From Treponemataceae bacterium (lineage in GTDB: Bacteria; Spirochaetota; Spirochaetia; Treponematales; Rectinemataceae): a stretch of 64,000 nucleotides of DNA. Positions 17,282-44,417 of this stretch are shown here, one piece after another. The stretch covers positions 320,001 to 384,000 of the forward strand of contig CAXXHO010000003.1 in the NCBI GenBank assembly GCA_963667725.2. The letters run 5' to 3'. Position numbers and translations under genes: made by a program. The notes under the pieces are model-generated. The model worked only from the letters and a program-made list of their open reading frames with translations. It had not been told where the DNA came from and made no database searches. Position 1 is the stretch's first letter. The number at the start of each line of letters is the position of its first letter.

Positions 17282-17329
17282 AAATAGTGGAGAATAGGGG
17301 ATTCGAACCCCTGACCTATAGATTGCGAA
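17282..17329 (-). repeat. att core, distal copy (3' half of tRNA-Ala)
   Basis: Identical to 44339-44386: AAATAGTGGAGAATAGGGGATTCGAACCCCTGACCTATAGATTGCGAA. Confidence 0.95.
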
Positions 17330-25908: not shown

Positions 25909-25915
25909 TAATGCT

Positions 25916-26101
25916 TTAGTCGCCATCTCCACCACATTCACCATCACCATGACAATCAGAACCAATATCACTGCAATCAGTAGATGCAGAATTCGTTGTA
26001 GGGATTACTGATTCTTGTAGTTGCTGACTGGAAACTCTATTCCAATGAGCATATTGCATTTGAATCTTAGCGATCTTCTCATCTAAAGCTAAATCAGACA
26101 T
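25916..26101 (-). CDS. Putative RiPP precursor peptide (61 aa; Cys/Asp/Gly-rich C-terminal core)
   Basis: GAGGAGG RBS; ends 7 nt before the rSAM start; core TDCSDIGSDCHGDGECGGDGD. Confidence 0.8.
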   Translation of the reverse strand: MSDLALDEKIAKIQMQYAHWNRVSSQQLQESVIPTTNSASTDCSDIGSDCHGDGECGGDGD

Positions 26102-26551: not shown

Positions 26552-28885
26552 TTATGCCACTTTTGGTATTGCCCCCAACAAGTAGAGATATTGTTGAAAT
26601 CCAGTGAAGGTTTTACCTATATCTTCTCCAAGGTCTGCCACTGCATCAGAAATAGAGTCATTGTACTTCAACCTAAGTAGGGATGTAAGTTTTTCAACCG
26701 CTAGTTCTTCAACTCCGACTGAGATGTAATGGCCTAAGACAAATTCAAGGAATCCCTTCTGTTTGGTAGAGAACCTATCAGACATAATTTTCTTTGCTTC
26801 TGAAGCCCTTTCCTCCCGTGTAAACGTAGGCATTGCATACGCAACAAAGGCGAGCACATCAAAGATATCACTCTTCTCAGCTTCAATAATCTTCTGCATT
26901 TCTTCAAGCTGTGTTTTCCCAAATCCATTCTCTGCAAGTCCTTCAAGCAGTTTTTTTCTTGTGATGGGGGAACTCCACAAATCTCGCAACTCAGCCTCAC
27001 TCTTGAAAAAGTCAGGTAGCTTTCCGAAAAGCACTTCCATGAACTGCTGAGCTGACATTGGAGTACCATCAGGATGCCAGAAAGTAGTACACATCATGTG
27101 CTGTATCGTTCGTTCCTTCCCATCTGCAAGCTTCACTTTTATTTTGGCTGGCCTCTCGACTGGAGGTTCAAGCGGTGGTTTTTGTTTTTTCTCAGGGATA
27201 GGAGTGTGTTCTTGTTTGGGGTCAGGCTCTACTGGTTCTCCATCCCAATCTTCATCATGGAAGTGTAGATGGGCTTTTACAAAGTCATGGATAGTAAAGT
27301 AGTCCTTGTTATCGTGAAGCCTCGTTCCTCTGCCAATTATCTGCTTGAACTCGATCATTGAGTTCACGGGGCGCATCAAGACAATGTTCCGAATGTTTCG
27401 AGCGTCTACTCCAGTTGAGAGTTTTTGAGAAGTTGTAAGGATGGTAGGAATAGTCTTTTCATTGTCTTGGAATTCACGGAGATGGGTATCCCCTATCTCA
27501 CCTTCATCTGAGGTAACTCTATGGCAATAATCAGGGGATGTACTAGTCTTCATCTGGTTTATCAAATCTCTGACTGCAAGGGCATGGGCTTGGGTTGCAC
27601 AGAATACAATTGTCTTTTCAGATTGACTGATCTGATCCATGAAGAGTTTTACCCTGACGGCCTCTCTCTCCCTGATCTCGATTATCTTATTAAACTCAGC
27701 CTCTGTGTACCTACGTCCTGTATCAATCTCTCCTTGGAGCACATCATCATCAGCGGTATAGACGTATTCATCAAGAGAAGTCGTATATTCCTTGACCCTG
27801 AAGGGAGTGAGGAAGCCATCGTTGATACCTTCTTTAAGAGAGTATGTATAGACTGGCTCTCCAAAGTAAGCGTAGGTATCTATGTTTTCAGTTCGCTTCG
27901 GGGTTGCAGTAAGCCCAAGTTGTACAGCAGGGGAGAAGTATTCAAGGATTTCTCGCCATGTGCTCTCATCATTCGCGCCACCTCTATGACACTCATCTAT
28001 AACAATGAAATCAAAAAAGTCTTTGGGGTAGTTTCCAAAGTAGGGGGAGGGTTTTCCATTTACAGGTTGCCCACTCATGAACGTCTGGAAGATTGTAAAG
28101 AAGATGCTACCGTTTGTAGGTACTCTTTGCCTAAGCTTTATTTCTGATGGTTTAATTCTTATCATCGCATCATCAGCAAAAGCGTTAAATGAAGAGAAAT
28201 CATTATAGGCTTGGCTAGCTAAGTTGTTTCTATCCGCTAGGAATAGGATTCGCGGGCGACGTGTTGGCTGTCCACTCAGATTCCACCAAGATTTGAATAA
28301 CTTCCATGCTATTTGAAAAGCGATAGCAGTCTTCCCTGTACCAGTAGCAAGGGTAAGCAGAATGCGTTTTTCGTTTTTTGCAATCTTCTCAAGCACTCTG
28401 TTTACTGCTGTTTCTTGGTAGTAGCGAATATCCCAGGTACCACCTTTGTCAGGGAATGCAGTTTCGGTGAATCTATTACGCCATTCATTTACCTGCTCAA
28501 AAGTTCGATTCCAAAGCTCTTCCGGTGTTGGAAACTTAGGCACATCCTCTTCTTTTCCAGTGAGCATATCAATTGCATAGATGCCCCTACCGTTTGTTGA
28601 ATATGTAAACCTTATAGATAGTTTTGAGGCATAGTTCTTAGCTTGTCCAACTCCTTCAGAGACTTCTTGGCCATACGCTTTTGCTTCAATGGTGGCAAGC
28701 CGAATATTCTTATACACGAGGACATAGTCAGCAGTAAGAGGCTTTCCTCTTCTTCCTTGACTGCCTTCGAGTCTGCCAGGATAGATGGGGTATTCTCGTC
28801 TTATTTGGCTATTCTCAACTGTTCCCCATCCAGATAAAGCGAGGGAAGGATCGATATACTCAGCACGTGTTTCGGCTTCATTCAT
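26552..28885 (-). CDS. hsdR: Type I restriction enzyme subunit R (EcoAI/EcoEI-like)
   Basis: ADY...IEAK nuclease; LATGTGKT; DECHRG; LTATP; QIIGRGTR. Confidence 0.93.
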   Translation of the reverse strand: MNEAETRAEYIDPSLALSGWGTVENSQIRREYPIYPGRLEGSQGRRGKPLTADYVLVYKNIRLATIEAKAYGQEVSEGVGQAKNYASKLSIRFTYSTNGRGIYAIDMLTGKEEDVPKFPTPEELWNRTFEQVNEWRNRFTETAFPDKGGTWDIRYYQETAVNRVLEKIAKNEKRILLTLATGTGKTAIAFQIAWKLFKSWWNLSGQPTRRPRILFLADRNNLASQAYNDFSSFNAFADDAMIRIKPSEIKLRQRVPTNGSIFFTIFQTFMSGQPVNGKPSPYFGNYPKDFFDFIVIDECHRGGANDESTWREILEYFSPAVQLGLTATPKRTENIDTYAYFGEPVYTYSLKEGINDGFLTPFRVKEYTTSLDEYVYTADDDVLQGEIDTGRRYTEAEFNKIIEIREREAVRVKLFMDQISQSEKTIVFCATQAHALAVRDLINQMKTSTSPDYCHRVTSDEGEIGDTHLREFQDNEKTIPTILTTSQKLSTGVDARNIRNIVLMRPVNSMIEFKQIIGRGTRLHDNKDYFTIHDFVKAHLHFHDEDWDGEPVEPDPKQEHTPIPEKKQKPPLEPPVERPAKIKVKLADGKERTIQHMMCTTFWHPDGTPMSAQQFMEVLFGKLPDFFKSEAELRDLWSSPITRKKLLEGLAENGFGKTQLEEMQKIIEAEKSDIFDVLAFVAYAMPTFTREERASEAKKIMSDRFSTKQKGFLEFVLGHYISVGVEELAVEKLTSLLRLKYNDSISDAVADLGEDIGKTFTGFQQYLYLLGAIPKVA

Positions 28886-28894
28886 AGGATATCC

Positions 28895-30046
28895 TTATAG
28901 GTTCCCTGTGAAGGCTTCATTCAATATAGATTTCTTGAGAGCTTCGAGTTCAATTATCTTCCGCTTGATAACCGATTCAAGTAATGTAATTTCATCTTTT
29001 AGCATATTCAGTTCATGGACTATTTCCTGTTGCTTTTGTAGTGGTGGTAGATGGATGGGGAAGTTACGAAGATATCCTAATCCTACAAACTTTTGCGTTG
29101 AACCTCTAGCATCATTCATCATCTTAGTAATAACTGCACTAGAAGAAAGGTAATATTGTAAAAACTCACTACTCTGAGAACTAGGTATTTTAAAAAGTGC
29201 AACATTTTTAATTGCAAAATTTGGCTCAACTGCAACCAATGTTGGATTTCCAATCGTTCCGATCATTGCAAAAAGTACATCACCCCTGTCTACAGCACTT
29301 CTTTTATTAATTTGAAGAAAGTCTTCCTCGCTAATTAAGCTAACATCATCAAAACTCAATCCATTCGTTTTTAAATTTTTGGAAGTTATAAGAGGATAGC
29401 CAGTCTTATGGTACTTAGGAGAATCATGTGTTCCATCCCTAACATCATAATATTCTCCGAGAGTTCCATCATTCCAGTCATTGCTTTGTCTTGTAAAAAT
29501 TAAATGTAAATAGCTTTCAAATAAATTATGAGCATTTTTTAGATTCTTCTCTGCATTTGCCTTGGCTATGGCTATTCCCTCAAATGCTTCATCGAGGATT
29601 TTAACAATGCGTTGTTGCTCTGACATCGGAGGGACAAATATCTCAAATCCTAAAAGGGAGTTGACGTTAGCTCTTGGCATCCGAGCACCTGTAGAGGTCG
29701 AACTAATTTTAGCTACTGTCGAGTAAGACATAAGCCAGTATTGTAAAAATGAACGTGTTATATTCGGTTTTGGTTTTAGTGGCATTATTTCTGTTGAGCA
29801 ATGACCATTAAAATCTGGTGCATATACTTTATTTAGATAGGGGCGTAATCTCCCATATAATAGATGTTCGGTTGAAAATGAAAATGTAGAACTCTTTACA
29901 TCCTGAGGTAGTTTGGAACCAATAAACCTTCCTGTATTAGATTCGATATCTTCCAACCCTACATATGGTAATCCTTTGAAAATCTTTTGTATTTTTTCTA
30001 TAATACATACATCTGCGATTTTCATTTTTTCCCATACACTTTTCAC
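28895..30046 (-). CDS. hsdS: Type I R-M specificity subunit S
   Basis: Two TRDs followed by PPMSEQQRIV and PPLQKQQEIV conserved regions. Confidence 0.93.
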   Translation of the reverse strand: MKSVWEKMKIADVCIIEKIQKIFKGLPYVGLEDIESNTGRFIGSKLPQDVKSSTFSFSTEHLLYGRLRPYLNKVYAPDFNGHCSTEIMPLKPKPNITRSFLQYWLMSYSTVAKISSTSTGARMPRANVNSLLGFEIFVPPMSEQQRIVKILDEAFEGIAIAKANAEKNLKNAHNLFESYLHLIFTRQSNDWNDGTLGEYYDVRDGTHDSPKYHKTGYPLITSKNLKTNGLSFDDVSLISEEDFLQINKRSAVDRGDVLFAMIGTIGNPTLVAVEPNFAIKNVALFKIPSSQSSEFLQYYLSSSAVITKMMNDARGSTQKFVGLGYLRNFPIHLPPLQKQQEIVHELNMLKDEITLLESVIKRKIIELEALKKSILNEAFTGNL

Positions 30047-31545
30047 AACAAACCCCTAATCTTCTCTAATACCCTTGCACTCTCATCGTCCAACCTGACT
30101 ATCTCATCAAGTATATCTTTAGGACTTCGATGAAATACTTCTTCATTTCCATTAGGATTCTTTACAGAAAGATCAAAGGAGATCTTATCCACATCACCAA
30201 TTTTGATACTCCAAGACTTTGGAGAATCTTCAAACTTCTTCGATAGCTTCACAAAGTCTGCAAGGTCTTCATCATTGAGTGGGTTTGTCTTGCCAAGAGT
30301 TCTGCCGGGATCAAGCTGGTAATACCATATCTTCCGGGTAGGTTCTCCCTTTTGAAAGAAGAGAATGACCGTCTTTACTCCAGCCCCTTGGAATGTTCCT
30401 GAAGGGCAATCGAGGATAGCTGTGAGGTTGCAGCTCTCAAGAAGCAGTTTCCGCAGGGAAGTCGAAGCATTGTCGGAGTTGGATAGGAATGTATTCTTAA
30501 TCACAATCCCTGCTCGTCCCCCTGCTTTAAGCATCTTTATAAAGTGCTGAAGGAAAAGAAATGCAGTCTCTCCTGTACGGATAGGGAAGTTCTGTTGGAC
30601 TTCGGGGCGTTCACTCCCCCCAAAAGGAGGATTTGCTAGGCATATATCTACTCTATCTTTCTCCTGTATGTCAGATAGGTTTTCTGTAAGTGTATTCGTG
30701 TGGATGATATTAGGTGCATCAATGCCATGAAGAATCATGTTCATTATAGCGATGACGTATGCGAGAGATTTTTTCTCCTTCCCGATGAAGGTTTTTTCTT
30801 GCAGTATCTTTACATCTTTGGTGGTAAGCTCTTTCGATTCTTTCATGTAGTTGAAAGACTCACAGAGGAATCCGGCTGAACCTACAGCCCCGTCGTATAC
30901 CTTCTCCCCTATCTGAGGCTTTACAACTTGTATCATGGCTCGGATTAACGGACGAGGAGTGTAGTACTCTCCCCCATTCCTTCCTGCATTGCCCATGTTC
31001 TTAATCTTGGCTTCATAGAGATGGGAGAGTTCAAACTTGTCAGATTGAGATCTGAACTTCAACTCATCGATATGGTCGAGGATGTCCCTCAAACTATAAC
31101 CCGACTGGATCTTGTTCTTGATCTCTCCAAAGATTTCACCAATCTTGTACTCGATTGTATTAGACCCTGAAGCTCTGCCCTTGAAGCCGTGAAGGTATGG
31201 AAACAGCTTCTGGTTCACAAAACCTATTAGGTCATCCCCAACCATCGCCTTGTTGTGGTCGAGCTTCCCATCTTTACCCTTTGGAGCTGCCCATGACTCC
31301 CATCGGTAAGGTTTTTCTAGGATATAGGAGTATATGCGGCCTTCTAGTTTAGCTTCAGTAGCTCTATCTTCCTCTAAGCCATCGAGATATTTGAGGAAGA
31401 GTAGCCATGAGGTTTGCTCAGTGTAATCAAGTTCGGTAGTACAACCAGCTTCTTTATGGAGGATGTCATCGATGTTCTTGAAGGCTTGCTCAAAGTTGTT
31501 TACTGGAACTATTTTGTTATCTGAGTTAGCTTTAGTCCTCGCCAT
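30043..31545 (-). CDS. hsdM: Type I R-M N6-adenine methyltransferase subunit M
   Basis: GEYYTPR, DGAVGSAGF and NPPF motifs. Confidence 0.94.
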   Translation of the reverse strand: MARTKANSDNKIVPVNNFEQAFKNIDDILHKEAGCTTELDYTEQTSWLLFLKYLDGLEEDRATEAKLEGRIYSYILEKPYRWESWAAPKGKDGKLDHNKAMVGDDLIGFVNQKLFPYLHGFKGRASGSNTIEYKIGEIFGEIKNKIQSGYSLRDILDHIDELKFRSQSDKFELSHLYEAKIKNMGNAGRNGGEYYTPRPLIRAMIQVVKPQIGEKVYDGAVGSAGFLCESFNYMKESKELTTKDVKILQEKTFIGKEKKSLAYVIAIMNMILHGIDAPNIIHTNTLTENLSDIQEKDRVDICLANPPFGGSERPEVQQNFPIRTGETAFLFLQHFIKMLKAGGRAGIVIKNTFLSNSDNASTSLRKLLLESCNLTAILDCPSGTFQGAGVKTVILFFQKGEPTRKIWYYQLDPGRTLGKTNPLNDEDLADFVKLSKKFEDSPKSWSIKIGDVDKISFDLSVKNPNGNEEVFHRSPKDILDEIVRLDDESARVLEKIRGLL

Positions 31546-31771: not shown

Positions 31772-31855
31772 GACAGTTTTTTCATATACAAGCTCAAATA
31801 AGCTATTATCTTATTAGGTTAGTAATAAATAGATATAAGACCAATAAATACCCGA

Positions 31856-31883
31856 TTGACTTCATAGTAGGTCGAGGTATACT
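31856..31883 (+). promoter_or_regulatory. Candidate sigma70 promoter upstream of the cassette array
   Basis: TTGACT-N16-TATACT. Confidence 0.35.
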
Positions 31884-32271
31884 GATAATAATTTAGTATC
31901 TAAAACAATAATAGATACGATGAGTGTTTTCATTCTGTTTCGGCGAAGAGAGCCCCGCGTATCTGTTGGGTGCTAAAAAACTTAGTTGCCTATAAGGACA
32001 GCTAGGCATAGTCATATCTTCTTAAAGATTCAAGAAAACATTTTCTGTTTCCGGATGATGCGCCTTGATTGCTTTATAATTTGAATATACTGAACAGTAT
32101 ATACTCTAGTAATTGAATGGGAACTTTTTACAAATATTTATGTTAGATTGCTTTATTCTTAGAATCATCTGGTTACATTGTTCATCCTAACCGACTCTCA
32201 AAGTATTTTATATAGAACTGTATAATTGATGTTAGGCATATTAAGTATTGTTAAAAATTAGGGTTTAATAA

Positions 32272-32946
32272 ATGATAAAAAAAATAGATTGTTTTACTGG
32301 TCATCATAATTTAGAGAAATGTATAAATAAGACTAATTCGGAATATCGTCTATTTGACCCAGGCTTATATCTATATAATTTATTATGTAATACTTCTCAA
32401 GATGAAAAGTACAAATCAGAATATATAAAACTTGTATATACAACACTTGTTGCTTGGGGAATGAATTCTCGGGGTGCAAAACTAAGTAAATATGACGTTT
32501 TTGAAGCTTCAATTCTTGACAACCAATCAGTATTTGAAAGACTATCAATCAATAAAATAGAAAAATGTACAATTGAAAGTATAAAAAGTGATCTGAAAAT
32601 ACTGTTTAAAAATTTAAATCTTGTAAGGAAAGGGAATCCGAAATTAGTTACATTTACAAAGACCGTACATTTTTTCTTAACAGATTTAATAGTTCCAATG
32701 GACCGAACATATACAATACCATTTTTTCACACTTCATGGAGGTCAGAATATATCAAACAGTTTGATCTGTTATGTAAAATGGAGAATTTGTTCATGGATT
32801 TTGCAGCAAACAATTATGAAAATATAAATAAATTTAAAGATGAAAAATGGAATAGAAATATTCCTAAAATAATAGATAGTTTAGTAATTGGATATGAATA
32901 TTTTGAAAAAGCAAATAAGAAAAGACATAAAAAGAAAAATGCCTAA
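32272..32946 (+). CDS. Cassette 1: hypothetical protein, possibly HhH DNA-glycosylase-like
   Basis: LVAWGMNSRG and TKTVHFFLTDLIVPMDRTYT; stop TAA lies inside the inverse core GCCTAAC. Confidence 0.6.
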   Translation: MIKKIDCFTGHHNLEKCINKTNSEYRLFDPGLYLYNLLCNTSQDEKYKSEYIKLVYTTLVAWGMNSRGAKLSKYDVFEASILDNQSVFERLSINKIEKCTIESIKSDLKILFKNLNLVRKGNPKLVTFTKTVHFFLTDLIVPMDRTYTIPFFHTSWRSEYIKQFDLLCKMENLFMDFAANNYENINKFKDEKWNRNIPKIIDSLVIGYEYFEKANKKRHKKKNA

Positions 32947-33064
32947 CAAATGCTTCAACCTTATAAATCCTTTAGCACGTTTTGTGCAGAAATCTCATGC
33001 ACAAAACGCGCCAAGCCTTCGCAGTAGCTCAGGCACGCATTTAAAGGTTAAGCCAATGTTAGAT
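32941..33064 (+). repeat. attC site 1
   Basis: GCCTAAC...GCTTCAACCTT...AAGGTTAAGC...GTTAGAT, with an unpaired base in the L box. Confidence 0.88.
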
Positions 33065-33160
33065 TGTCGCCTTCGGCGCAAAAGTAGACATGTTGAATAA
33101 AATATCAATTATATTAAATCTATGCTAGATGAACGCCAAGTGGTAGGATAGGAGATCAAA

Positions 33161-34612
33161 ATGTACTTTAGTGATTTATTTGGTATCGATCAGAAACAAT
33201 TAGATGATTATGGTGCTTTAAATGTCTCACTAATAAATGATCTTCCACTCTTTATTGATCCTTTCTTGTTATTCAATAGCAAGAAAACAGAGTATATACG
33301 CTTACATGAAGAAATAATAAAGTATGTTATCTTTTTACGAGATGAAGCGTTAGCTGGGAAAATTGATAAAGGTTTAATAAGGCGATGGTTTTATTTTTCT
33401 GAGGTTAAACAAAACTGGCTTGGTTTCTGTTTAACTGGAAATTCAGGTACTGGACTTGGTGATGATTTTGCAGAAAGTTTATACGCAAACTTCTCTACAG
33501 TATTAAAAGATTTTGGCAATGAGACAATAGCAAAAAGCCATATTGAGAAATTATGCCTGTTTAAAGAAGGGATTGGAAAAGACAATATTAGTGATTTTAC
33601 AACAAACCTAATAAAACAATATTTACTTGAATACACTCAAGCATTTGCAAAGAAATATCTACAGGCTGATAGATGTAAAGAAATAATTGTTGATAAAGTA
33701 TATTTCAATTATAAGACTAGATCTTGGGTACAGCAAAAATATTTTCTACCCTATTTTGCTAATGACTATGTACTTCTTACACCACTTGATATCTTAACAA
33801 AAGATGATACTTGGATTAATAAAGCGTCATTATTTAGTACATTCAATAGTGTAGTAAGCTCGATTGAAAACATCGAATTGCGTTCACAATTAAATGACTA
33901 CTTCAGAAGCCGACTTCCCAAAGCACCAAGATCAAGAGATATTGAAGCTGCAAAGAGTTCTGTTCTTGCTAAGTATCCTGAGCTTATTGACTACTTTATC
34001 CGGTATAAGGAAAAGTATGGGAATCAAGCTGAAAGAATTAGTAAGAAAAAAGTTGCTGATACATATCAAAAGTTTGTAGCTGAATTAAGTGCATTTAGCT
34101 CAGTTCTGAAAGAAAGTACCAATTTTTATAATACTCCAACAGATTCGTATCAGGAAGCTCTAAAGAGAGTTATGTATCTAAAACAAGTGATTGAGAAAAA
34201 TGATGGATATAGACTTTTCTACCATAAGAATGAAGTAGTTGGAAATGAAAAAGATTTACATATTCTCTTTAGATTAGCTTGGTTCAATACTGTTTTTTCT
34301 GTTGATAGTGAGGTTAATAATGGTAGAGGTCCAGTAGATTATAAGATATCTAAAGGATTTTCTGACTCAACTTTAGTTGAATTCAAATTGGCTAGTAATA
34401 CTAAGCTTGAACAAAATATTAAAAAACAGCTGGAAATATATTTAGATGTAAATGCAACAAAAAAAGGAATAAAGGTAATTCTATTTTATACATTACATGA
34501 AGAAATTAAAGTAAAAGAACTATTAAAAAAATTGAAGATAGATAATAAAGAGAATGTTATTCTAATTGATGCACGAAAAGATAATAAGAAAAGCGCTTCA
34601 AATGTAAAATAA
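33161..34612 (+). CDS. Cassette 2: hypothetical protein with C-terminal PD-(D/E)xK nuclease-like motif
   Basis: EVNNGRGPVDYKISKG...LVEFKLASN; N-terminal DLPLFIDPFLL. Confidence 0.65.
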   Translation: MYFSDLFGIDQKQLDDYGALNVSLINDLPLFIDPFLLFNSKKTEYIRLHEEIIKYVIFLRDEALAGKIDKGLIRRWFYFSEVKQNWLGFCLTGNSGTGLGDDFAESLYANFSTVLKDFGNETIAKSHIEKLCLFKEGIGKDNISDFTTNLIKQYLLEYTQAFAKKYLQADRCKEIIVDKVYFNYKTRSWVQQKYFLPYFANDYVLLTPLDILTKDDTWINKASLFSTFNSVVSSIENIELRSQLNDYFRSRLPKAPRSRDIEAAKSSVLAKYPELIDYFIRYKEKYGNQAERISKKKVADTYQKFVAELSAFSSVLKESTNFYNTPTDSYQEALKRVMYLKQVIEKNDGYRLFYHKNEVVGNEKDLHILFRLAWFNTVFSVDSEVNNGRGPVDYKISKGFSDSTLVEFKLASNTKLEQNIKKQLEIYLDVNATKKGIKVILFYTLHEEIKVKELLKKLKIDNKENVILIDARKDNKKSASNVK

Positions 34613-34620
34613 AGCAATTC

Positions 34621-34725
34621 ATCTAATAAAAGCTTCAATCTTATAACACTCTTTGTCATGGTTTGTGCAGAACAACAATGCACAAACCATGACAAAGAGT
34701 GTTAAGGGTTAAGCCAATGCTCTAC
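34621..34725 (+). repeat. attC site 2 (both core sites mutated)
   Basis: ATCTAAT...GCTTCAATCTT...AGGGTTAAGC...GCTCTAC; long perfect inner stem TAACACTCTTTGTCATGGTTTGTGCA. Confidence 0.8.
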
Positions 34726-34788
34726 GGAACCTTTGTGCAAAAATTAAAAATACTTTATATTATCATTATAATATTGAAGGAGCAGTAA

Positions 34789-36237
34789 ATGAGCTGCAAT
34801 TTTAAAGAAATTGATTGGGGTCCAGATGAAGCAAAAAATGATCATAATCTTGAGAAGTATTTTGTAAAGATTCCCCAATATCAAGATATTTTATTGGGGA
34901 AAAAAAGGTATATAATTGGAAGAAAAGGAACAGGAAAAACAGCAATACTAGAGAGTATTCGAATAGAATCAGAAAAGAATCCATTATGGCAGTTTGCTGA
35001 TATATCATTAAAGAATTTTCCATTATCTATAATTAGAAACCTTAGAGATAAAAATTATCGTGATAAATCACAATATGTTCCAGCATGGTCATTCCTGTTG
35101 TTAATTGAATTAGCTAAAATGATATGTTCTGATGAATCCTCTAAGCCATTTGAAGAAGTCTTTCGTCTTAAAGAATTCTTGATTAGCAATAGATTCCTTG
35201 AGGGTACAATAACAGAAACAGCAACATTTCTTGAAGAAAATGAAGCCAAAGTTAATGTTGCATCTGAATGGTTAGGAGCTGAATATACAAAAAAGTATGG
35301 AAAAGAAATTAATACTTCAATTGTGTATCATAGAGTATTAGAAATTCTTATTGCGAAAATTAATCGAATTAATTCTGACTCAACTTATTTTTTATTGGTT
35401 GACGAGTTAGATGAAGGTTATAAAGCGAAAGATTCTAATATTAGGTTGTTAATATTGTCCTTATTGTGGAGCATAGAAAATTTAGCATTACTATTTAAAT
35501 ATGATAATATTAGGCTTCGATGTGTATTAGCGTTAAGATCAGATATTTATGAGACTTTAGAAGATAATGATTTAAATAAATATGATGATTACTTAATAAA
35601 ACTAATTTGGAATCCAAAACTGTTAGGGAATTATTCTATTTTAGAAATTGTTAATAAGAGAATAGTAGCTTCTTATCCTCAATTAGCTGATGATGAAAAT
35701 CCATGGTTGAAAATAGCAAATCAATATGATAGAAGTATTCCAATAAGAAGAGGTGGGCTTTGGGAGTTTATGTATAATAGAACATATGAAAGACCAAGAG
35801 ATATAATTAAATTTTTGAAGATCTGTCAAAACAAAACAAGAAGTAGAATATTAGATTATTCTATAGTAAAAGATACAGAACTAGATTATTCTACATGGCT
35901 TTGGGGAGAAATAAGAGATGAATTACATTCTCATTTAGCAGTATGGCAAGAAGCTTTACAGGCTATAACAAGAGTAAATAAAGGTAAATTTACCAGAGAA
36001 GAATATACCTATCAATTACAAGCTAGTTTAAAAATTGTTAAATGGCTTGAGGCAAATTACAAGACAGTAGATGATCTTATTGAAATTCTATTTGATTATA
36101 GTATAATTGGTAATTACTATCCAGAGACGGAAAGATGGATATTTAAATATAAAGATACAACATTAGCATGGGATCGTGATGCAAATATAATTGTTCACTT
36201 TGGCCTAGTTAAAAAATTAAGAATAAGGACTTATTAA
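34789..36237 (+). CDS. Cassette 3: P-loop ATPase (Sll1717/FunZ-like)
   Basis: IIGRKGTGKT (Walker A), LLVDELD (Walker B), LRSDI and RPRDII. Confidence 0.75.
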   Translation: MSCNFKEIDWGPDEAKNDHNLEKYFVKIPQYQDILLGKKRYIIGRKGTGKTAILESIRIESEKNPLWQFADISLKNFPLSIIRNLRDKNYRDKSQYVPAWSFLLLIELAKMICSDESSKPFEEVFRLKEFLISNRFLEGTITETATFLEENEAKVNVASEWLGAEYTKKYGKEINTSIVYHRVLEILIAKINRINSDSTYFLLVDELDEGYKAKDSNIRLLILSLLWSIENLALLFKYDNIRLRCVLALRSDIYETLEDNDLNKYDDYLIKLIWNPKLLGNYSILEIVNKRIVASYPQLADDENPWLKIANQYDRSIPIRRGGLWEFMYNRTYERPRDIIKFLKICQNKTRSRILDYSIVKDTELDYSTWLWGEIRDELHSHLAVWQEALQAITRVNKGKFTREEYTYQLQASLKIVKWLEANYKTVDDLIEILFDYSIIGNYYPETERWIFKYKDTTLAWDRDANIIVHFGLVKKLRIRTY

Positions 36238-36245
36238 AACAAGAC

Positions 36246-36368
36246 GAAGAACAACTGCTTCTACCTTATAAATCCTTTGGTATGGTTTGTGTATAAATGT
36301 CATGCACAAACCACGCTAAGCCTTCGCTTCGCTCAAACGCTGATTTAAAGGTTAAGCCAATGTTATGT
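36246..36368 (+). repeat. attC site 3
   Basis: GAAGAAC...GCTTCTACCTT...AAGGTTAAGC...GTTATGT; similar to attC1. Confidence 0.82.
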
Positions 36369-36439
36369 AGACCCTTCGGGAAATAAAATATTATAAAAAA
36401 ATAAATTTAAGTGTATACATACTAATCTAAGGATGTTGT

Positions 36440-37285
36440 ATGAATCAACCAGGTCCAGTATTTAATATTTTAGTACATCATGTAGAGCTAAGTCCAAGTC
36501 TGAGTGGGCTTGATATTGGATATGAATCTGGTAATTGGAGAAATGATCAATTAGCAGAATTTGTAATGGATTGGTTACCAGAATTTGCATTACCACTTCA
36601 GGAATGTGAAAAAATAGGTCATTATAATGCTGTTTCGTTTATTCGAAGAGCTGCAAGAATTGTTTATGAAACAGAAAAATTTTCAAAACGAGGAGAATTT
36701 GGAGAATTATTTTTACATATAGCAATGAGACAAATATTTAATTCATTGCCCGCAATATCTAAAATATATTATAAATCTGCTAATAATGATACTGTAAAGG
36801 GATTTGATGCTGTACATGTAGTTCCAATGCAAGATGGGCTTGAACTCTGGATAGGAGAAGCGAAATTTTATAGCGATATTAATGCTGCAATTCATGATGT
36901 AGTTAATGAACTAACTATACATACACAAATTGATTATTTACGAACTGAGTTTACATTAATAACAAATAAGATTGATGAAAAATTCCCACATTATGAAGTA
37001 TTAAAAAATTTGATGGATCCAAGAACATCACTAGATGAAATATTTAAAAGAGCTTGTATTCCTGTTCTACTGACTTACAATAGTGAAGTAATAAATAAAT
37101 ATAATAGAAATGATGGCGACTACATAGAAGATTTTAGAAAAGAAATATTAAGTAATTATAAGAAATTCTCAGAAAGCAAATTGCCTGAAAATATTCATAT
37201 ACATTTATTCCTTTTTCCAATAAAAGAAAAGGAACGACTTATTGAAGCATTAGATGCGAGGTTGAAAAAATGGCAACAAATTTAA
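36440..37285 (+). CDS. hamA: Hachiman antiphage protein HamA (DUF1837)
   Basis: GEFGELFLH, KGFDAVH and WIGEAKFY motifs; overlaps the helicase gene. Confidence 0.85.
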   Translation: MNQPGPVFNILVHHVELSPSLSGLDIGYESGNWRNDQLAEFVMDWLPEFALPLQECEKIGHYNAVSFIRRAARIVYETEKFSKRGEFGELFLHIAMRQIFNSLPAISKIYYKSANNDTVKGFDAVHVVPMQDGLELWIGEAKFYSDINAAIHDVVNELTIHTQIDYLRTEFTLITNKIDEKFPHYEVLKNLMDPRTSLDEIFKRACIPVLLTYNSEVINKYNRNDGDYIEDFRKEILSNYKKFSESKLPENIHIHLFLFPIKEKERLIEALDARLKKWQQI

Positions 37286-39405
37286 GCTATTCGCAGATGA
37301 TAGAAACGTTTAATAGTATTGAAAGTATTAGAAAACAAGAATTTAATTTACTGAAAAATATATCTTCAATATGTAATAATCCAGAAAAACAAGACGAAGG
37401 TAGAGAACTTGTTTTGAGAGTTCTTGAAAATAGAAATACTTTTATTAATACAAAACAAATAGTTAACTCACTAGTTTCTGCAGTAGGACTCTATCCATAT
37501 CTAGATCAGTCTATTATTGATTATAAAGATGCACTTTTGTATGAATACAATCGTCCACTATCATTTAGTAAAAGTAATATTGTATTTCATAAAGAGCAAA
37601 ATGAAATATATCGACGTCTACTTAAAGGTGATAGTGTAATATTAAGTGCTCCAACTAGCTTTGGAAAAAGCAAAATAATTGATGCAATAATTGCTTCTGA
37701 AAAATACAATAACATTGCAATTATTGTACCTACACTAGCTCTTATAGATGAAACAAGAAAAAGAGTATATAACATAGCTGAAAAGTATAAAGTTATTACT
37801 CATACTTCACAAAAGGCTAGTACTTATAATATTTTTGTCTTCACAGCAGAGAGGGCTGTAGCTTATGAAGAATTTCCCAAAATTGATTTTTTTGTCGTAG
37901 ATGAGTTTTATAAAATTGACGCAATTGAAGAAGATAATAGTAGGACAGTAGCATTAAATATTGCCTTCCGTAAGTTGCTTAGTTTTGGTGGTCAGTTTTA
38001 TATGTTGGGTCCAAGTATAGAAAAAATTCCTAAAGGTATAGAAGAAAAGTATCGGTGTTTTTTTTATCCTACAAAATTTAGTACAGTAGTATCTGAAACT
38101 CATTTTGTAAAAAAAAGCGGTAATGATATTTTTGATCTGGTTAAATTATGTTCTGAATTAAAAGATCCTACGCTAATCTATTGTAGATCACCAGCAAGAG
38201 CAAATGAAATAGCAAAAGCTTTTTGTGAATTCTATCCAAATAAGAAAAGTAAGATTTTAGATGGCGCTTCATCATGGGCTTCTAAAAATTACCATCCTGA
38301 ATGGATATGGGCTAAGGCAATTTCAAAAGGTATAGGCATTCATCATGGTAGAATACCAAGATCACTTGCACAGTTTACAATAAAAATGTTTAATGATTTA
38401 ATAATTGATTTCTTAATTTGTACAACAACTTTAATTGAAGGTGTAAATACTAAAGCCAAAAATGTCATAATATTTGATGATACAATAGGTAAAAAAGCAT
38501 TTGATTTTTTTACTTTCAATAATATAAGAGGTAGATCTGGTAGAATGTTTGAACACTTTATTGGACATGTATATCTGTTTTCTGCTCCTCCGTCCAAAGA
38601 ATTGCCTTTTGTAGACTTTCCTTTAGTAACACAAAATGAAAGAGTTCCTGATAGTTTACTAGTTCAATTAGATGAAATAGAGTTAAATCCTAACACAATT
38701 AGTCGTACAAGGCTCTGGACAGAACAAACAATTCTTCCGATTACAATTCTTCGACAAAATGCAACAATTGACCCAGAATCTCAAATAGAATTAGCGGAGG
38801 AAATTATTAATGATATTGATACTGTATATGAATTATTAAATTGGATTGGAATACCTAAATATAGACAATTAAAATATTCATGTGAAATAATATGGAAATA
38901 TTTTTATAAAGAAAATAGAAGTTTCGCGGTCTATTCGGCTAATCAGTTAACTTTTAAAATCAATCAATTGCAAAGAGATCCAAGTATTCCCACAAGAGTA
39001 CTCCAAGAACTAAATCAAGGAAAGTATTCAGCAAAAGACCCCGACGATGCAGTCGAAAAAGTATTATTTTTTGATCGAAATTGGGCAGGATTTGAATTAC
39101 CCAAATCGTTAATGGCACTTTCTAGAATACAGGAGTTTATTTTTAAAAGCAGGGGATTATCAGGAGGAGATTATAGTTTCTTTGCAAGTCAAATAGAATC
39201 ATTATTTCAAGAGCCAATACTTATTTCTTTAGAGGAATATGGATTACCGATGCAATTGACAAAAAAAATAATTCAATATATAGGGACGGATAATGACCTT
39301 GATATTGCTTTAAAATATTTAAAAAGAGTTGATATTGAAAAATTACCAATAAATGAGTTTGAAAAACTATTGGTAAGTGATGTAAAACATTACTTATCAA
39401 AATAA
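37270..39405 (+). CDS. hamB: Hachiman antiphage SF2 helicase HamB
   Basis: APTSFGKS, DEFYK, IHHG, TTTLIEGVN and GRSGR motifs. Confidence 0.85.
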   Translation: MATNLSYSQMIETFNSIESIRKQEFNLLKNISSICNNPEKQDEGRELVLRVLENRNTFINTKQIVNSLVSAVGLYPYLDQSIIDYKDALLYEYNRPLSFSKSNIVFHKEQNEIYRRLLKGDSVILSAPTSFGKSKIIDAIIASEKYNNIAIIVPTLALIDETRKRVYNIAEKYKVITHTSQKASTYNIFVFTAERAVAYEEFPKIDFFVVDEFYKIDAIEEDNSRTVALNIAFRKLLSFGGQFYMLGPSIEKIPKGIEEKYRCFFYPTKFSTVVSETHFVKKSGNDIFDLVKLCSELKDPTLIYCRSPARANEIAKAFCEFYPNKKSKILDGASSWASKNYHPEWIWAKAISKGIGIHHGRIPRSLAQFTIKMFNDLIIDFLICTTTLIEGVNTKAKNVIIFDDTIGKKAFDFFTFNNIRGRSGRMFEHFIGHVYLFSAPPSKELPFVDFPLVTQNERVPDSLLVQLDEIELNPNTISRTRLWTEQTILPITILRQNATIDPESQIELAEEIINDIDTVYELLNWIGIPKYRQLKYSCEIIWKYFYKENRSFAVYSANQLTFKINQLQRDPSIPTRVLQELNQGKYSAKDPDDAVEKVLFFDRNWAGFELPKSLMALSRIQEFIFKSRGLSGGDYSFFASQIESLFQEPILISLEEYGLPMQLTKKIIQYIGTDNDLDIALKYLKRVDIEKLPINEFEKLLVSDVKHYLSK

Positions 39406-39426
39406 TTATGATGATAGAATAGAGAT

Positions 39427-39550
39427 GCATAACAACCGCTTCAACCTATTAAGCCTTTTGTCATGGTTTTTTCGAGAAGATGACGCAAAAACCACGCCAA
39501 TCCTTCGCTTCGCTCAGGAGCAGGCGTTAAGGGTTAAGCTAATGTTAGGA
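39427..39550 (+). repeat. attC site 4
   Basis: GCATAAC...GCTTCAACCT...GGGTTAAGC...GTTAGGA. Confidence 0.85.
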
Positions 39551-40116: not shown

Positions 40117-41718
40117 CTATGCAGCTAGTTTGCGCCTGATTGAGTAAAAACGTTCCCGAGCATGACCTGTCTCGTAGGTAATATCATACCCATCGGAGTT
40201 CCCAACCATTTTTGACCACTTCTGCGCAAACCAATTCGCATTGTACCGATATGACAGTTGCTGACTCTTCATATACTCAGCAAAATACTTTGCAAGGGCA
40301 TTTGCCTTGTACTTCTCAGACTCAAGGGATGGGCTGAAACGTTCATAAAGGTAGTCAACAAAGCCTTGGAAGTTCGACATTTCGCTATCAAAAGACTTGT
40401 CTTCTTGTGAAAGGCTAAAGTCAAAGCAGTCAACCTCTGGATAGAAGATGGAAAGGAGTTTAGAAATTTGATATGACCAAGCTTCAAACTTTACTGCTGG
40501 ATGGACAACCTGAGTATGTGATTCATCCCCTCTTTCTGCCAACAGTTTTAACCCTGCAAAGATATCAGCAAGAACTCCCTCTCTCGCCTTAAGCAACTCC
40601 TCCAGTTTCTTCATCACCTCCGCACCATCCCCTTCCTTCATCAACCCCCTATCTTTCATCCTTATCACTACCAGCCGAGCTAAAAGATCTTCATTAATTG
40701 ATTCCTCAGTATTAAACGTCGCAAGGTACACCTTGTTATTAGGAGCCTTGAGATGTGCTTGGAGGAAGAACCATGCCTTGATGGTTGGATCGGTAATAGA
40801 TCGAGATATCCGAGTAAGCTTTTGGGGATTAGGCTTTACTATATTGTCAAAGAGGGCAAAGCGGTTCGAGAGGCCGGGAATGCCATTAACAATAGCATCG
40901 TCTTTTCCATCCCCTTCCATGTTAAGTGGCATGAAGCCTTGCACTATATGACTAGCATATTCAGCAACAGTCGTCTTCCCTGCTGATCGTGATGGAGCTA
41001 CGATCCCAAACAAAGGCCTTTTGCCATCATAGTATCGGGTAAGGAATGGTGACAGCAGTGCGGCTGCTAGCCTGTACTCATCTTTTATGGAGGCAGTTGT
41101 GAATGTACTCATTAGCTTCCTGAATTCGCCTGTGAACTGGCATGCATCCCCTTCGAATCGATCCTGACAGTTGCCAAGGTAGAAGGTCTGTGGGTCTTGG
41201 ACAATCTCCGGGACACAAGAGAATCGATTTATGGTCTTGGCATTCATCTTCAGGAACTCGAAGTACTTTAGTTCGGTAATTGGCATACCTGACTTGAATT
41301 CAAGGAGGAATCCCTTATTGCTGAGCCAAGGATGCATCTGGTTGAGATTCTTGAAGAAAGTACTGGGGTCATTACTATCCATGAGGTAGCGATGCCCTGA
41401 GCTGTCTTGAAAGGCCATAAGGAAAGGGAGAGGGGCTTTCATGTCATCTGTATAGTCAGTGAAGGCAGTCTGTTCAGTCTTGATCGTCGTTTTCGAGCTG
41501 TCCTTTTTATCAGGGGAGAGCCGGAAATCTTTTCTATAGTTTCGAATTATCAACTTCCCAGAATCAGTGCGGTTACTTTCCGGCTCCTGATGCTCGTCGG
41601 CTTCATCTGGGGCTAGGTCTTGTTCTGGTGCATCAGGCGTCTTTTGCATAGTTGGCTGTATTGCATCGCTACACTGAACGTCATTAGAACGTTCACCCCC
41701 ATCATTTTTTTCATTCAT
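40117..41718 (-). CDS. P-loop NTPase, putative replicative helicase of the element
   Basis: APSRSAGKTT (Walker A-like), ALFDN (Walker B-like), ATFN and DLLAR; follows int-xis. Confidence 0.55.
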   Translation of the reverse strand: MNEKNDGGERSNDVQCSDAIQPTMQKTPDAPEQDLAPDEADEHQEPESNRTDSGKLIIRNYRKDFRLSPDKKDSSKTTIKTEQTAFTDYTDDMKAPLPFLMAFQDSSGHRYLMDSNDPSTFFKNLNQMHPWLSNKGFLLEFKSGMPITELKYFEFLKMNAKTINRFSCVPEIVQDPQTFYLGNCQDRFEGDACQFTGEFRKLMSTFTTASIKDEYRLAAALLSPFLTRYYDGKRPLFGIVAPSRSAGKTTVAEYASHIVQGFMPLNMEGDGKDDAIVNGIPGLSNRFALFDNIVKPNPQKLTRISRSITDPTIKAWFFLQAHLKAPNNKVYLATFNTEESINEDLLARLVVIRMKDRGLMKEGDGAEVMKKLEELLKAREGVLADIFAGLKLLAERGDESHTQVVHPAVKFEAWSYQISKLLSIFYPEVDCFDFSLSQEDKSFDSEMSNFQGFVDYLYERFSPSLESEKYKANALAKYFAEYMKSQQLSYRYNANWFAQKWSKMVGNSDGYDITYETGHARERFYSIRRKLAA

Positions 41719-42823: not shown

Positions 42824-44212
42824 TTAACTAATTAAGCTGATAGGAATTGTTCCATTTCCCCCCTTGAGCTGGGTGCTCTGCTCTTCTGGAAAAATGAAGG
42901 GAAGCAGTTTTGTCCTGAATATTTTGCGATACAGCTCCCCTTGTTCAGGTGTAACATGATAATAATAATCTGTCATCTCTTCTGAAGAATGGCCAATTGA
43001 TTGCCTCAATACTTCATCAGGCATTTCTCCTCGATACTCTGAATTATTAAGATGCCGCCATGCATGGAAATCTAAATCGCGTCTTTGTTGCTCCTTTCGG
43101 CTAATACCAATAGTCTCAAGTACTTTTCGCAAATGATCAAGAAATAAGTCTGGATTCATAGGACAGTCCTTATTATTGATATCCCAAAAGATAAAATTGT
43201 TTTTATGGGGGTTTTGAGAGTATAGCCATTTCAGTCGATTAAGTAGTATCAAATCGGTATATACTACTCGTGATTTTTTATTTTTCGTTGTCTTTAGCTC
43301 TTGCTCTTGACGTTCCCAATTATGCCTGATAAAGAGACGCACACCATTGAAGTCAAGGTCTTGAATTTGCAGTGCAGCCACTTCCCCTGCACGCAACCCA
43401 TGACTTGCCGCTATCTGTGATGCAAGCTTAGATCGCTCATCTGGCCAATCTGCCGCTAAGACTTTTTTCATCTCATCCAGAGTAAGTATCTCCCTATGTT
43501 TTGTTGAAAGAGCGAGTTTCCGCATGTTAGCTGAAGGGTTTTCATGGATGATCCCCAACCTTGTAGCTTCACCTAATGGTGTGGTGACACATCCGAGAAT
43601 TGTATTGATTGTTCGTGGCTTCAACCCTTTAGGGTTAGAGGGGGAATATCGAGGGAGTTGATTTTTGAACTCCTCAAGGCTAACCGTGGTTATTGATCGT
43701 ATACGCATCTCTTTGAGGAATGGCTTTGCATATCGTTCGATGTAAGCTTTATTAGCTCTACAATATTGCTTTCCAATACTCTGGCCGCTCTCCCGCTTGT
43801 CCCGAATGTAGGGGGACGTGTCCCAGTCCCAAAATGCTAGAAGGTACTCTAAAAAGACTGGATTAGCTCTATTCATATCGACTCCTGACAATACAAGTGA
43901 TGTCTTAGAAAGGAGGTCATCGACCGATAGAACTTGTCCGGCTTCTATTATACCTTTCCCTAGAAGAAAGCGCGTTAGGTAAGTCTTAACCTGTCCGTCA
44001 GTAATGATATTGGTTTTTTCTGGTTTGGGAGGGAGGCCTCCATAGGAGGTTAGCCAACTCTGTGCCATTCGCTCAGCATCACGTTTATTTGTTTTTCCGG
44101 TAGAGTGGCCGGGCAAGTAGCAATGAAGTTCTTTATCCCAAAATTGAACATAGATATAAGGGGAGTCATCTCGCGTATAGAGAGAGTAAAAATTGTGTAC
44201 AGTGTTTTCCAT
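42824..44212 (-). CDS. int: Tyrosine recombinase/phage-type integrase (probable start MENTV at 44212)
   Basis: GLRAGE, TTKNK, HAWRH, IGH and Y catalytic residues; adjacent to the tRNA att site. Confidence 0.93.
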   Translation of the reverse strand: MENTVHNFYSLYTRDDSPYIYVQFWDKELHCYLPGHSTGKTNKRDAERMAQSWLTSYGGLPPKPEKTNIITDGQVKTYLTRFLLGKGIIEAGQVLSVDDLLSKTSLVLSGVDMNRANPVFLEYLLAFWDWDTSPYIRDKRESGQSIGKQYCRANKAYIERYAKPFLKEMRIRSITTVSLEEFKNQLPRYSPSNPKGLKPRTINTILGCVTTPLGEATRLGIIHENPSANMRKLALSTKHREILTLDEMKKVLAADWPDERSKLASQIAASHGLRAGEVAALQIQDLDFNGVRLFIRHNWERQEQELKTTKNKKSRVVYTDLILLNRLKWLYSQNPHKNNFIFWDINNKDCPMNPDLFLDHLRKVLETIGISRKEQQRRDLDFHAWRHLNNSEYRGEMPDEVLRQSIGHSSEEMTDYYYHVTPEQGELYRKIFRTKLLPFIFPEEQSTQLKGGNGTIPISLIS

Positions 44213-44344
44213 AACTATCCTTTGCAAGGTGACTCTTACAGTCACTCTTACAGCTAGATAGTTACAGGAAGAAAAACATTGCTTTCAAAATCAGTAGGTT
44301 TTCGTAAACCTTTATAGTATAAAAACTTACGAAGAAAAAAATAG

Positions 44345-44417
44345 TGGAGAATAGGGGATTCGAACCCCTGACCTATAGATTGCGAACCTATCGCTCTACC
44401 AACTGAGCTAATTCCCC
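44345..44417 (-). tRNA. tRNA-Ala (anticodon CGC), CCA not encoded
   Basis: GGGGAATTAGCTCAGTTGGTAGAGCGATAGGTTCGCAATCTATAGGTCAGGGGTTCGAATCCCCTATTCTCCA; G3:U70 pair. Confidence 0.96.

What the first reader, a model, noticed from the sequence alone, without database searches (positions are those of the whole stretch)
32232..39550. Integron cassette array (four attC, no intI) of defence-type genes inside a tRNA-integrated element
Seen: four related 105-124 bp imperfect palindromes with R''/L''/L'/R' layout (GCTTCAACCTT pairs with AAGGTTAAGC leaving one unpaired base), each following a co-oriented AT-rich ORF. Each cassette's leading core is complementary to its own trailing inverse core: GTTAGGC/GCCTAAC, GTTAGAT/ATCTAAT, GCTCTAC/GAAGAAC, GTTATGT/GCATAAC. 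Established: this is the signature of cassettes that were once circular. The element's only recombinase lacks the IntI-specific insertion. Inference: a non-integron mobile element carries a cassette-loaded defence hotspot, filled in trans by a host IntI.
Basis: partly seen in the sequence, partly recalled or inferred. Interest (0 to 1): 0.9.

Follow-up and report, generated by a model that had tools for sequence, protein, structure and literature searches.

The report
Integrase-free integron platform with antitermination leader
A mobile island in a spirochaete carries a gene-cassette landing pad that has kept the promoter, a structured RNA leader and the insertion site of an integron but not its integrase, is loaded with anti-phage genes, and has a leader resembling the RNA hairpin bound by the antiterminator LoaP.

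Summary
The four attC sites are real. They sit in a 27-kb tRNA-Ala island with no intI, and the genome has three intI elsewhere with the same attC family. Cassette 4 is Hachiman hamAB.

Three more such platforms occur in two other integrated elements of this genome, probably of separate origin. An orthologue of one holds different later cassettes.

The hairpin covaries, also precedes cas operons, and matches the LoaP-bound dfn hairpin in core sequence and register. The genome encodes a LoaP-like protein just under the family cut-off.

Verdict: a CALIN variant, a non-autonomous attI platform probably loaded in trans, with a candidate LoaP leader. Activity, expression and binding are inferred, not shown.

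The parts
17282..17329 (-). att repeat, 48 bp (copy of the 3' part of tRNA-Ala CGC); far end of the island
   Evidence: exact repeat of 44339-44386; Rfam scores the copy at 32.6 bits against 72.7 for the whole tRNA
21776..22534 (+). AbiGi-family gene, island cargo outside the array
   Evidence: Pfam and PADLOC
22758..24398 (-). gene with a primase/polymerase-like N-terminus; possible replication gene of the island
   Evidence: PHROG 19930, E 1e-7, residues 7-114 only
26552..31545 (-). type I restriction-modification hsdM-hsdS-hsdR, divergent from the array
   Evidence: Pfam and PADLOC
31856..31883 (+). sigma-70-type promoter, homologous to the one upstream of the intI genes; inferred array promoter
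   Evidence: 10 of 12 consensus matches (such matches are not above chance alone); aligned with intI promoters
31909..31968 (+). leader RNA hairpin with UUCG loop (conserved core 31932-31948); candidate LoaP-recruiting hairpin
   Evidence: fold, covariation, likeness to the dfn hairpin
32173..32238 (+). attI-like site; crossover after the G at 32231
   Evidence: alignment with intI-linked attI; matrix rank 7 (core) and 19 (65 nt) of 8.45 million positions; closest to the attI of intI-bearing locus L119
32232..33058 (+). cassette 1 (827 bp): 224-aa ORF 32272-32946 with a helix-hairpin-helix DNA-glycosylase-like fold
   Evidence: model pLDDT 87; best match Z 6.3, rmsd 5.0, 159 aligned, and the first 11 rows are all DNA glycosylases; no significant Foldseek, Pfam or PADLOC hit
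32941..33064 (+). attC 1
33059..34719 (+). cassette 2 (1661 bp): 483-aa ORF 33161-34612, DUF8370/DUF8371 look-alike, N-terminal half matches PADLOC candidate PDC-M36A
   Evidence: PADLOC E 4e-22 over residues 4-249; Atlas score 0.99
34621..34725 (+). attC 2
34720..36362 (+). cassette 3 (1643 bp): 482-aa Sll1717-family P-loop ATPase, ORF 34789-36237
   Evidence: NF047389, 272 bits against cut-off 75
36246..36368 (+). attC 3
36363..39544 (+). cassette 4 (3182 bp): Hachiman hamA (36440-37285) and hamB (37270-39405) in one cassette
   Evidence: PADLOC E 1e-121 and 8e-245, full length
39427..39550 (+). attC 4
40117..41718 (-). 533-aa protein of no named family; look-alikes are mostly viral, nearest named clusters are primase-helicases
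   Evidence: found in 2 of 251 genomes searched, this one included
42824..44245 (-). island integrase (phage-type tyrosine recombinase, not IntI)
44339..44417 (-). intact tRNA-Ala(CGC) 44344-44417 with the 48-bp att repeat 44339-44386

Best explanation
The array is the cargo of a non-autonomous integron platform on a tRNA-integrated element. In this spirochaete lineage intI points towards attI, so one transcription unit reads promoter, leader hairpin, intI, attI, cassettes. Removing only the intI ORF leaves promoter, leader, attI and cassettes as a compact unit (anatomy shown; deletion inferred). One of the three chromosomal IntI then inserts and excises cassettes at this attI in trans (inferred). 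The former intI promoter transcribes the 7.3-kb array, and the host's LoaP-like NusG paralogue binds the nascent hairpin so that RNA polymerase reads through it (inferred from likeness to the dfn hairpin). The island thus carries a re-loadable defence locus (Hachiman, a glycosylase-like gene, an ATPase and a PDC-M36A-like gene) beside a fixed type I restriction system. My odds per step: attC 0.99; promoter-leader-attI platform 0.9; origin by intI loss 0.8; still loadable in trans 0.7; hairpin is a LoaP site 0.65.
For: Three intI over cut-off in the genome; the window's attC 1 and 4 are 92-94% identical to sites of the C5 array. The 17-nt leader core occurs 7 times in the genome: before the 3 intI and before 4 intI-less arrays, with 0 matches for the reversed pattern. 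An attI matrix trained on 20 sites from other genomes and metagenome contigs ranks the four intI-less sites 4th, 7th (window), 8th and 12th of 8.45 million positions after attC masking, behind the 3 true attI. Hairpin-to-crossover distances of 298, 345, 332 and 335 nt equal leader (127-194 nt in all but one locus) plus stop-to-attI (155-172 in 19 of 20). The window's leader is closest to intI leaders (z 13.6 to L057) and its attI to that of intI-bearing L119 (z 8.9, next 4.2). An orthologue of platform P3 in metagenome contigs has the same flank and first cassette but different later ones. Hairpin: 94.7% of cells paired, 4 of 11 pairs with double changes; same 10-nt core and register as the dfn hairpin; also before cas1 and cas6-cas10 operons; LoaP-like protein present. 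The tRNA site is empty in same-genus G002.
Against: No second copy of this island was found, so variable content is shown for P3, not for this array. No cassette ORF has a homologue elsewhere in the genome. A profile HMM of the 3 own attI did not detect the window site, and the 65-nt matrix ranks it only 19th. Arrays in G002, and one in this genome, start at a short attI-like core with no promoter-hairpin leader, so the core alone may reflect IntI's target preference. The LoaP-like protein scores 118.7, under the cut-off of 125, and the hairpin was found in only 18 of 69 family genomes while the protein is near universal. Array sense strands hold almost no intrinsic terminators (window 0; C5 array 4 against 63 antisense), which is what LoaP is known to override. 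The 10-mer alone occurs 27 times in the genome. Platforms P3 and P4 carry no full-length PADLOC match among 14 ORFs.
Confidence: 0.6

Rival explanations
1. Frozen relic: a complete integron on the island gathered these cassettes in cis and then lost intI. Promoter, leader and attI persist only to keep the array expressed, and it is no longer loaded.
For: Spacing and nearest relatives point to intI loss. Two cores are degenerate (the core before cassette 3, and the inverse core of cassette 2). No cassette is shared with the resident arrays. Loss of intI is the textbook origin of CALINs (PMC4889954, PMC11389934, passages).
Against: Four such platforms in one genome; the P3 orthologue differs in later cassettes; the attI core is kept; attC are 87-94% identical to the resident family; three intact IntI are present.
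Confidence: 0.2
2. De novo platform: mobile elements carry a general promoter-plus-hairpin cargo hotspot, and cassettes landed behind it at an attI-like secondary (attG) site. No intI was ever there.
For: Viral contig L036, a relative of the P2 element, has the hairpin after the same repressor gene followed by AT-rich genes with no attC. The hairpin also precedes cas operons. Short attI-like cores start leaderless arrays in G002. IntI uses GWT attG sites (10.1101/2022.09.11.507474, passages).
Against: For the window, likeness to L119 runs about 60 nt upstream of the core and the outer stem of the leader is the intI type. The spacing fits removal of the ORF. This rival fits P2-P4 better than the window.
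Confidence: 0.13
3. The platform is as described, but the hairpin is not a LoaP site. It binds another factor (a translational repressor, IntI itself or another NusG paralogue) or acts as a DNA operator.
For: LoaP score under cut-off; few terminators to override; patchy co-occurrence; a second paralogue, UpxY-like, is in the genome.
Against: Compensatory changes favour a single-stranded structure. It is kept where no intI ORF follows. It precedes long array-type operons. Its core and register match the dfn hairpin.
Confidence: 0.25
4. The repeats are dispersed REP- or MITE-like elements, not attC.
For: They are palindromic and multicopy.
Against: They occur almost only in oriented arrays, three of which start at intI; cores are matched per cassette; an attI precedes the array.
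Confidence: 0.01

Closest known systems
[quoted passage not shown] 2016, PMC4889954, passages read)
   Same: Two or more attC, no intI nearby, intI elsewhere in the genome; mobilisation in trans already proposed (also PMC11389934, passages).
   Different: CALINs are defined by attC only; the paper says attI cannot be searched for in most integrons. Here promoter, leader and attI are present, no intI remnant is left, and the unit recurs in integrated mobile elements, so it can be an acceptor and expression platform, not only a cassette donor.
Treponema-type chromosomal integron (PMC3607928, passages read)
   Same: intI transcribed towards attI and the cassettes; long related attC; same order.
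   Different: No intI; on a mobile island; a conserved leader hairpin not mentioned in the passages read.
Defence cassettes of sedentary integrons (10.1101/2024.07.02.601686 and 10.1101/2025.10.29.685425, passages read; 10.1101/2024.07.02.601719, listing only)
   Same: Cassettes encode anti-phage systems, among them glycosylase-fold proteins.
   Different: Those are mostly small systems in intI-linked arrays. Here a 3.2-kb two-gene Hachiman is one cassette, and three of four cassettes exceed 1.6 kb against a median near 0.78 kb in the resident arrays.
LoaP / dfn-hairpin antitermination (PMC12691694: passages, section 10 and supplement search)
   Same: Leader hairpin with a UNCG loop, the same 10-nt core and bulge register, upstream of a long operon; LoaP is reported in Spirochaetota; a LoaP-like protein is encoded here.
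   Different: Known targets are polyketide operons rich in terminators. Here the targets would be integron arrays and cas operons with few intrinsic terminators. The loop-proximal stem differs, and binding is untested.
attG / SALIN insertions (10.1101/2022.09.11.507474, passages read)
   Same: Cassettes outside a complete integron, placed by an IntI encoded elsewhere.
   Different: attG consensus is three bases; this site resembles attI over the whole core and upstream, and sits behind the intI promoter and leader.

Membership tests
attC cassette array / CALIN | Two or more attC with R''-L''-L'-R' layout folding on the bottom strand | tested here: met
attC cassette array / CALIN | Hit to the IntegronFinder attC covariance model | not testable with these tools
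   model not held; a profile of the genome's intI-linked sites hits all four
attC cassette array / CALIN | No intI nearby | tested here: met
   no IntI remnant by tblastn with 2 of the 3 IntI in the 27-kb island; no TIGR02249 hit in the window
Complete integron | intI gene beside attI | tested here: not met
   no ORF over 40 aa between leader and attI
Complete integron | attI site before the first cassette | tested here: met
   sequence match only; a profile HMM of the 3 own attI missed it
Complete integron | Promoter driving the cassettes | tested here: inconclusive
   homologue of the intI promoter present; no expression data
Complete integron | IntI-dependent insertion and excision | not testable with these tools
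   indirect only: differing cassettes behind the P3 orthologue
LoaP-recruiting hairpin | UNCG-loop hairpin in the 5' leader like the dfn hairpin | tested here: met
LoaP-recruiting hairpin | LoaP encoded in the genome | tested here: inconclusive
   best family is NF033641 at 118.7 bits, cut-off 125; family orthologues pass in 33 of 69 genomes
LoaP-recruiting hairpin | Downstream intrinsic terminators to be overridden | tested here: not met
   0 on the sense strand of this array by two simple scans
LoaP-recruiting hairpin | Specific LoaP binding and read-through | not testable with these tools
   needs binding and reporter assays
Hachiman | Adjacent hamA (DUF1837) and hamB helicase, full length | tested here: met
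Anti-phage HhH glycosylases (Dag-like) | HhH glycosylase fold | tested here: inconclusive
   Z 6.3 is middling, though the top 11 rows are all glycosylases; not compared with Dag1 or Dag2 themselves
tRNA-integrated mobile element | Integrase, flanking att repeats, empty site in a relative | tested here: met
Phage satellite or IME | Packaging, capsid or relaxase genes | tested here: inconclusive
   none among the island ORFs scanned; transfer route unknown

The most novel reading that the evidence does not exclude
Integrated mobile elements of these spirochaetes have more than once taken over a minimal integron module (promoter, LoaP hairpin, attI). It borrows two host proteins in trans, IntI to load cassettes and LoaP to transcribe them. 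LoaP would then control integron arrays, cas operons and mobile defence hotspots alike, and the hairpin would be a searchable marker for active intI-less attI platforms.
Probability: 0.4. Interest if true: 0.88.

Novelty: new variant of a known kind. Interest (0 to 1): 0.72.

Why it matters
CALINs are common, most lack any intI remnant, and their origin and activity are open questions. This case gives a concrete model: a CALIN that keeps attI, promoter and leader, rides on mobile elements, and can be reloaded by the host integrase. The three resident IntI and four platforms in one genome make it directly testable. It also offers a candidate target for spirochaete LoaP and a way for long cassette arrays to be transcribed beyond the first cassettes. 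A search for papers holding both LoaP and integron returned none.

Tried and rejected
REP/MITE reading: rejected. Rfam gave no family for the leader.

The exact 17-nt core is mostly chance in large collections. Only 7 of 51 genome loci and 1 of 9 viral loci had a flanking stem of 5 or more pairs; the rest had 3 or fewer. Eleven other genomes among 401 of the phylum had one-mismatch hits, none with intI downstream and none that I judged to have the promoter-hairpin context. Viral scans for promoter plus hairpin variants gave 18 loci, none with attC; the attC pattern gave 0.

The 533-aa gene found no relative in viral contigs and one 35% relative among 250 other genomes, whose region has no attC. 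So content variation at this island could not be tested.

Sequencing runs: no RNA holder listed. Contigs of two same-sample runs cover the stretch without differences. The joints seen fall on attC repeats or conserved genes and cannot show excision. The raw-read run gave 2 reads.

LoaP co-occurrence is uninformative because the protein is near universal in the family. Two LoaP papers were not held, so the published contact map was not compared. My promoter-plus-hairpin filter passed 6 of 708 motif occurrences, all integron-type platforms, against 0 of 1016 in the reversed genome, but it missed the window's own platform. Foldseek and Pfam gave nothing significant for cassette 1. One IntI was mis-framed and was dropped as a query. 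One of 21 attI candidates (L158) did not fit the anchor pattern and was dropped from training.
Full report
OBSERVATION. The four repeats are present as described, at 32941-33064, 34621-34725, 36246-36368 and 39427-39550. Bottom strands fold far better than shuffles (z -7.8, -9.7, -4.6, -3.7; 0 of 200 each). Each cassette's leading core matches its own inverse core better than the next core does: 14 of 16 cassette-specific bases against 6 of 16. This is what once-circular cassettes leave behind (established integron knowledge). The cassettes are 827, 1661, 1643 and 3182 bp.

SETTING. The array lies in a 27-kb island bounded by a 48-bp repeat of the tRNA-Ala(CGC) 3' end (17282-17329 and 44339-44386). 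The island's tyrosine integrase is not IntI. In same-genus genome G002 the tRNA joins directly to the homologue of window 3736-5146, so the island and about 12 kb beside it are missing there. The island also holds type I restriction genes and AbiGi; no packaging or relaxase gene was recognised. Titles of related records place the host in Rectinemataceae, Spirochaetota. The genome has three intI over the TIGR02249 cut-off, each pointing towards its array as described for Treponema (PMC3607928, passages), with 174, 38 and 34 attC of the same family. The genome is listed as 6.3% contaminated, so the three intI need not all belong to one cell.

Upstream of cassette 1 lie the promoter and leader that precede the three intI genes. 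A profile of those three leaders hits window 31852-31963 at E 7e-7. The 17-nt leader core occurs seven times in the genome: before the three intI and before four intI-less arrays, here called P1 (window), P2 (C3:518.6 kb), P3 and P4 (C3:1654 and 1641 kb). Each is followed by an attI-like site whose core matches the first cassette's inverse core. From the 39 intI loci examined I took 21 non-redundant attI candidates from other genomes and metagenome contigs; 20 fitted the anchor pattern. A matrix trained on them ranks the three true attI first, then P4, P1, P2 and P3 at 4, 7, 8 and 12 (22-nt core) or 5, 19, 4 and 6 (65 nt) among 8.45 million positions with attC masked. A profile HMM of the three own attI did not find P1. 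Hairpin-to-crossover distances are 298, 345, 332 and 335 nt, within the sum of leader length (127-194 nt in all but one locus) and stop-to-attI distance (155-172 in 19 of 20). No IntI remnant remains and no ORF over 45 aa lies in any platform. P1's leader is closest to intI leaders (L057, L047, L119) and its attI to that of intI-bearing L119. P3 and P4 are closest to each other and P2's leader to P4, which suggests a separate origin.

RECURRENCE AND VARIABILITY. P3 and P4 lie in a 40-kb element bounded by a 44-bp tRNA-Pro repeat. P2 follows a CI-like repressor in a related phage-like element beside a tRNA-Glu and an integrase; its att repeat was not found. Of 22 metagenome loci with promoter plus core, 12 have intI downstream and 5 look like chance. 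Two records (L118, L128) hold an orthologue of P3 with the same upstream genes and first cassette but different later ones. One (L123) has a hairpin variant, an attI-like core and an AT-rich gene. One (L116) has leader, no intI and an attC 3.5 kb on. One (L131) precedes an ORF whose first 14 residues resemble GDP-mannose dehydratase, a recalled likeness. A prophage in G019 has a promoter, a weak hairpin variant (E 0.74) and a truncated attC. A caution: G002 has four intI-less arrays that start at a short attI-like core with no leader; two lie at the chromosomal locus where this genome has its own leaderless cassettes, with different cargo. The core alone may therefore reflect IntI's target preference; promoter, leader and spacing are what set P1-P4 apart. 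No second copy of the window's island was found.

THE LEADER. It folds as a bulged hairpin with a UUCG loop. Over 12 sequences 94.7% of cells pair and 4 of 11 pairs change on both sides. Of five measures, three beat all 500 shuffles, while two were reached by 107 and 15 of 500; slid structures score lower. The rows were picked by the exact core, so its invariance is by construction. A covariance model hits 18 of 69 family genomes. Of the 17 others, 13 have intI downstream, 2 contigs end too early, and 2 precede cas1 or cas6-cas10 operons. Of 20 intI loci fetched, 4 showed the core close upstream, so it marks only some intI lineages. The supplement of PMC12691694 gives the LoaP-bound dfn hairpin of Bacillus velezensis. 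It shares the 10-mer CTGTTTCGGC, and by my reading the same register: outer stem, one-base bulge, two pairs, a C position, a U bulge, two pairs, UUCG. That paper shows the hairpin is required for LoaP antitermination and lists Spirochaetota among LoaP carriers. This genome encodes a protein whose best family is LoaP, at 118.7 bits against a cut-off of 125. Against the link: the 10-mer alone occurs 27 times; the protein is near universal in the family while the hairpin is not; and the arrays' sense strands have almost no intrinsic terminators.

CARGO. Cassette 4 is full-length Hachiman. Cassette 2 matches half of candidate PDC-M36A and resembles DUF8370/8371 proteins. Cassette 3 is an Sll1717-family ATPase. 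Cassette 1 models as a probable HhH glycosylase fold (Z 6.3, middling), recalling integron-borne anti-phage glycosylases (10.1101/2025.10.29.685425, passages). At E 1e-12, 3 of 5 ORFs here and 3 of 6 in P2 match PADLOC. In the intI-linked arrays 9 of 135 AT-rich ORFs of 150 aa or more match, 6 of them partial methyltransferase matches. P3 and P4 show no full-length match among 14 ORFs. Defence enrichment therefore holds for two of the four platforms.

MECHANISM. Shown: attC array, attI-like site, intI-type promoter and leader, absence of intI, resident IntI with the same attC family, mobile context. Inferred: loss of the intI ORF (0.8), loading in trans (0.7), transcription from the former intI promoter, and LoaP recruitment (0.65). 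The co-directional layout of spirochaete integrons explains why losing the ORF would leave an expressed, loadable unit. Main rivals: a frozen relic loaded in cis, a de novo hotspot with an attG insertion, and a hairpin bound by another factor.

RELATION TO KNOWN WORK. It is a CALIN by definition (PMC4889954, passages), and in-trans mobilisation of CALINs is in print. Defence cassettes are known, as are attG insertions. I did not find, in the passages read or in searches, a description of intI-less promoter-leader-attI platforms on mobile elements or of a LoaP-integron link; one search returned 0 papers holding both words. Most subscription papers are not searched, two LoaP papers were not held, and bioRxiv supplements are closed, which may bear on these claims. 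The scan's index had nothing near this window and no note with all my words; the one partial match concerned different features and was not used.

VERDICT. Observation confirmed; interpretation partly supported and extended. New variant of a known kind, interest 0.72.

Noticed in passing
G000 C5:396.8-550.0 kb, C1:0.4-33.7 kb, C7:38.6-64.8 kb: Three intI-linked arrays with about 174, 38 and 34 attC in one genome; IntI have a long N-terminal extension (about 430 aa). Six C5 sites are in reverse orientation.
   Followed up: partly
L078:5959-10500 and L079:2386-6017: The same leader hairpin precedes cas1-cas2-cas2-CRISPR and cas6-cas10 operons in Rectinema-like genomes.
   Followed up: partly
L131:6070-6248: The hairpin with a long stem precedes an ORF start resembling GDP-mannose dehydratase (recalled; 14 residues only), a typical target type of NusG paralogues.
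   Followed up: no
L013:13800-16450; L174:8500-13900; L175:13700-19800: An orthologous chromosomal locus after a conserved gene carries intI-less, leaderless cassettes that differ between G000 and two contigs of G002; a probable secondary attI or attG hotspot.
   Followed up: partly
L012:3485-13640: Platform P2 carries a NucC-like nuclease, a DUF4297-HerA pair and a probable insertion sequence interrupting an attC; a kinase and further AT-rich genes follow the last attC.
   Followed up: partly
L036:4277-6858: A viral contig related to the P2 element has the hairpin after the repressor gene, followed by AT-rich genes without attC.
   Followed up: partly
L179:8300-8960: Prophage in G019 with promoter, hairpin variant and what looks like a group II intron 3' end (recalled motif) inserted in an attC.
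   Followed up: partly
L016:8900-9050; L128:5480-5690; L176:9050-9200: A short, probably ORF-less cassette is first in P3, in its orthologue and in a G002 element, and has several copies in reverse orientation within the C5 region.
   Followed up: no
window 5147-17281: About 12 kb beyond the att repeat (transport and catabolic genes, an IS) is also missing in G002, suggesting stacked insertions at this tRNA.
   Followed up: partly
window 24844-26115: Radical SAM/SPASM gene closest to the ACGX system (337 bits, cut-off 400), with a short upstream stretch that may encode its peptide.
   Followed up: no
window 17857-19257 and 20867-21340: A BspA-type leucine-rich-repeat protein and a decayed IS200-like transposase (recalled likeness) inside the island.
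   Followed up: no
L100-L104, L108, L116: In one genus an ACT-domain-like gene (recalled likeness) and a small gene lie between the leader and intI; L116 keeps them but has no intI.
   Followed up: partly
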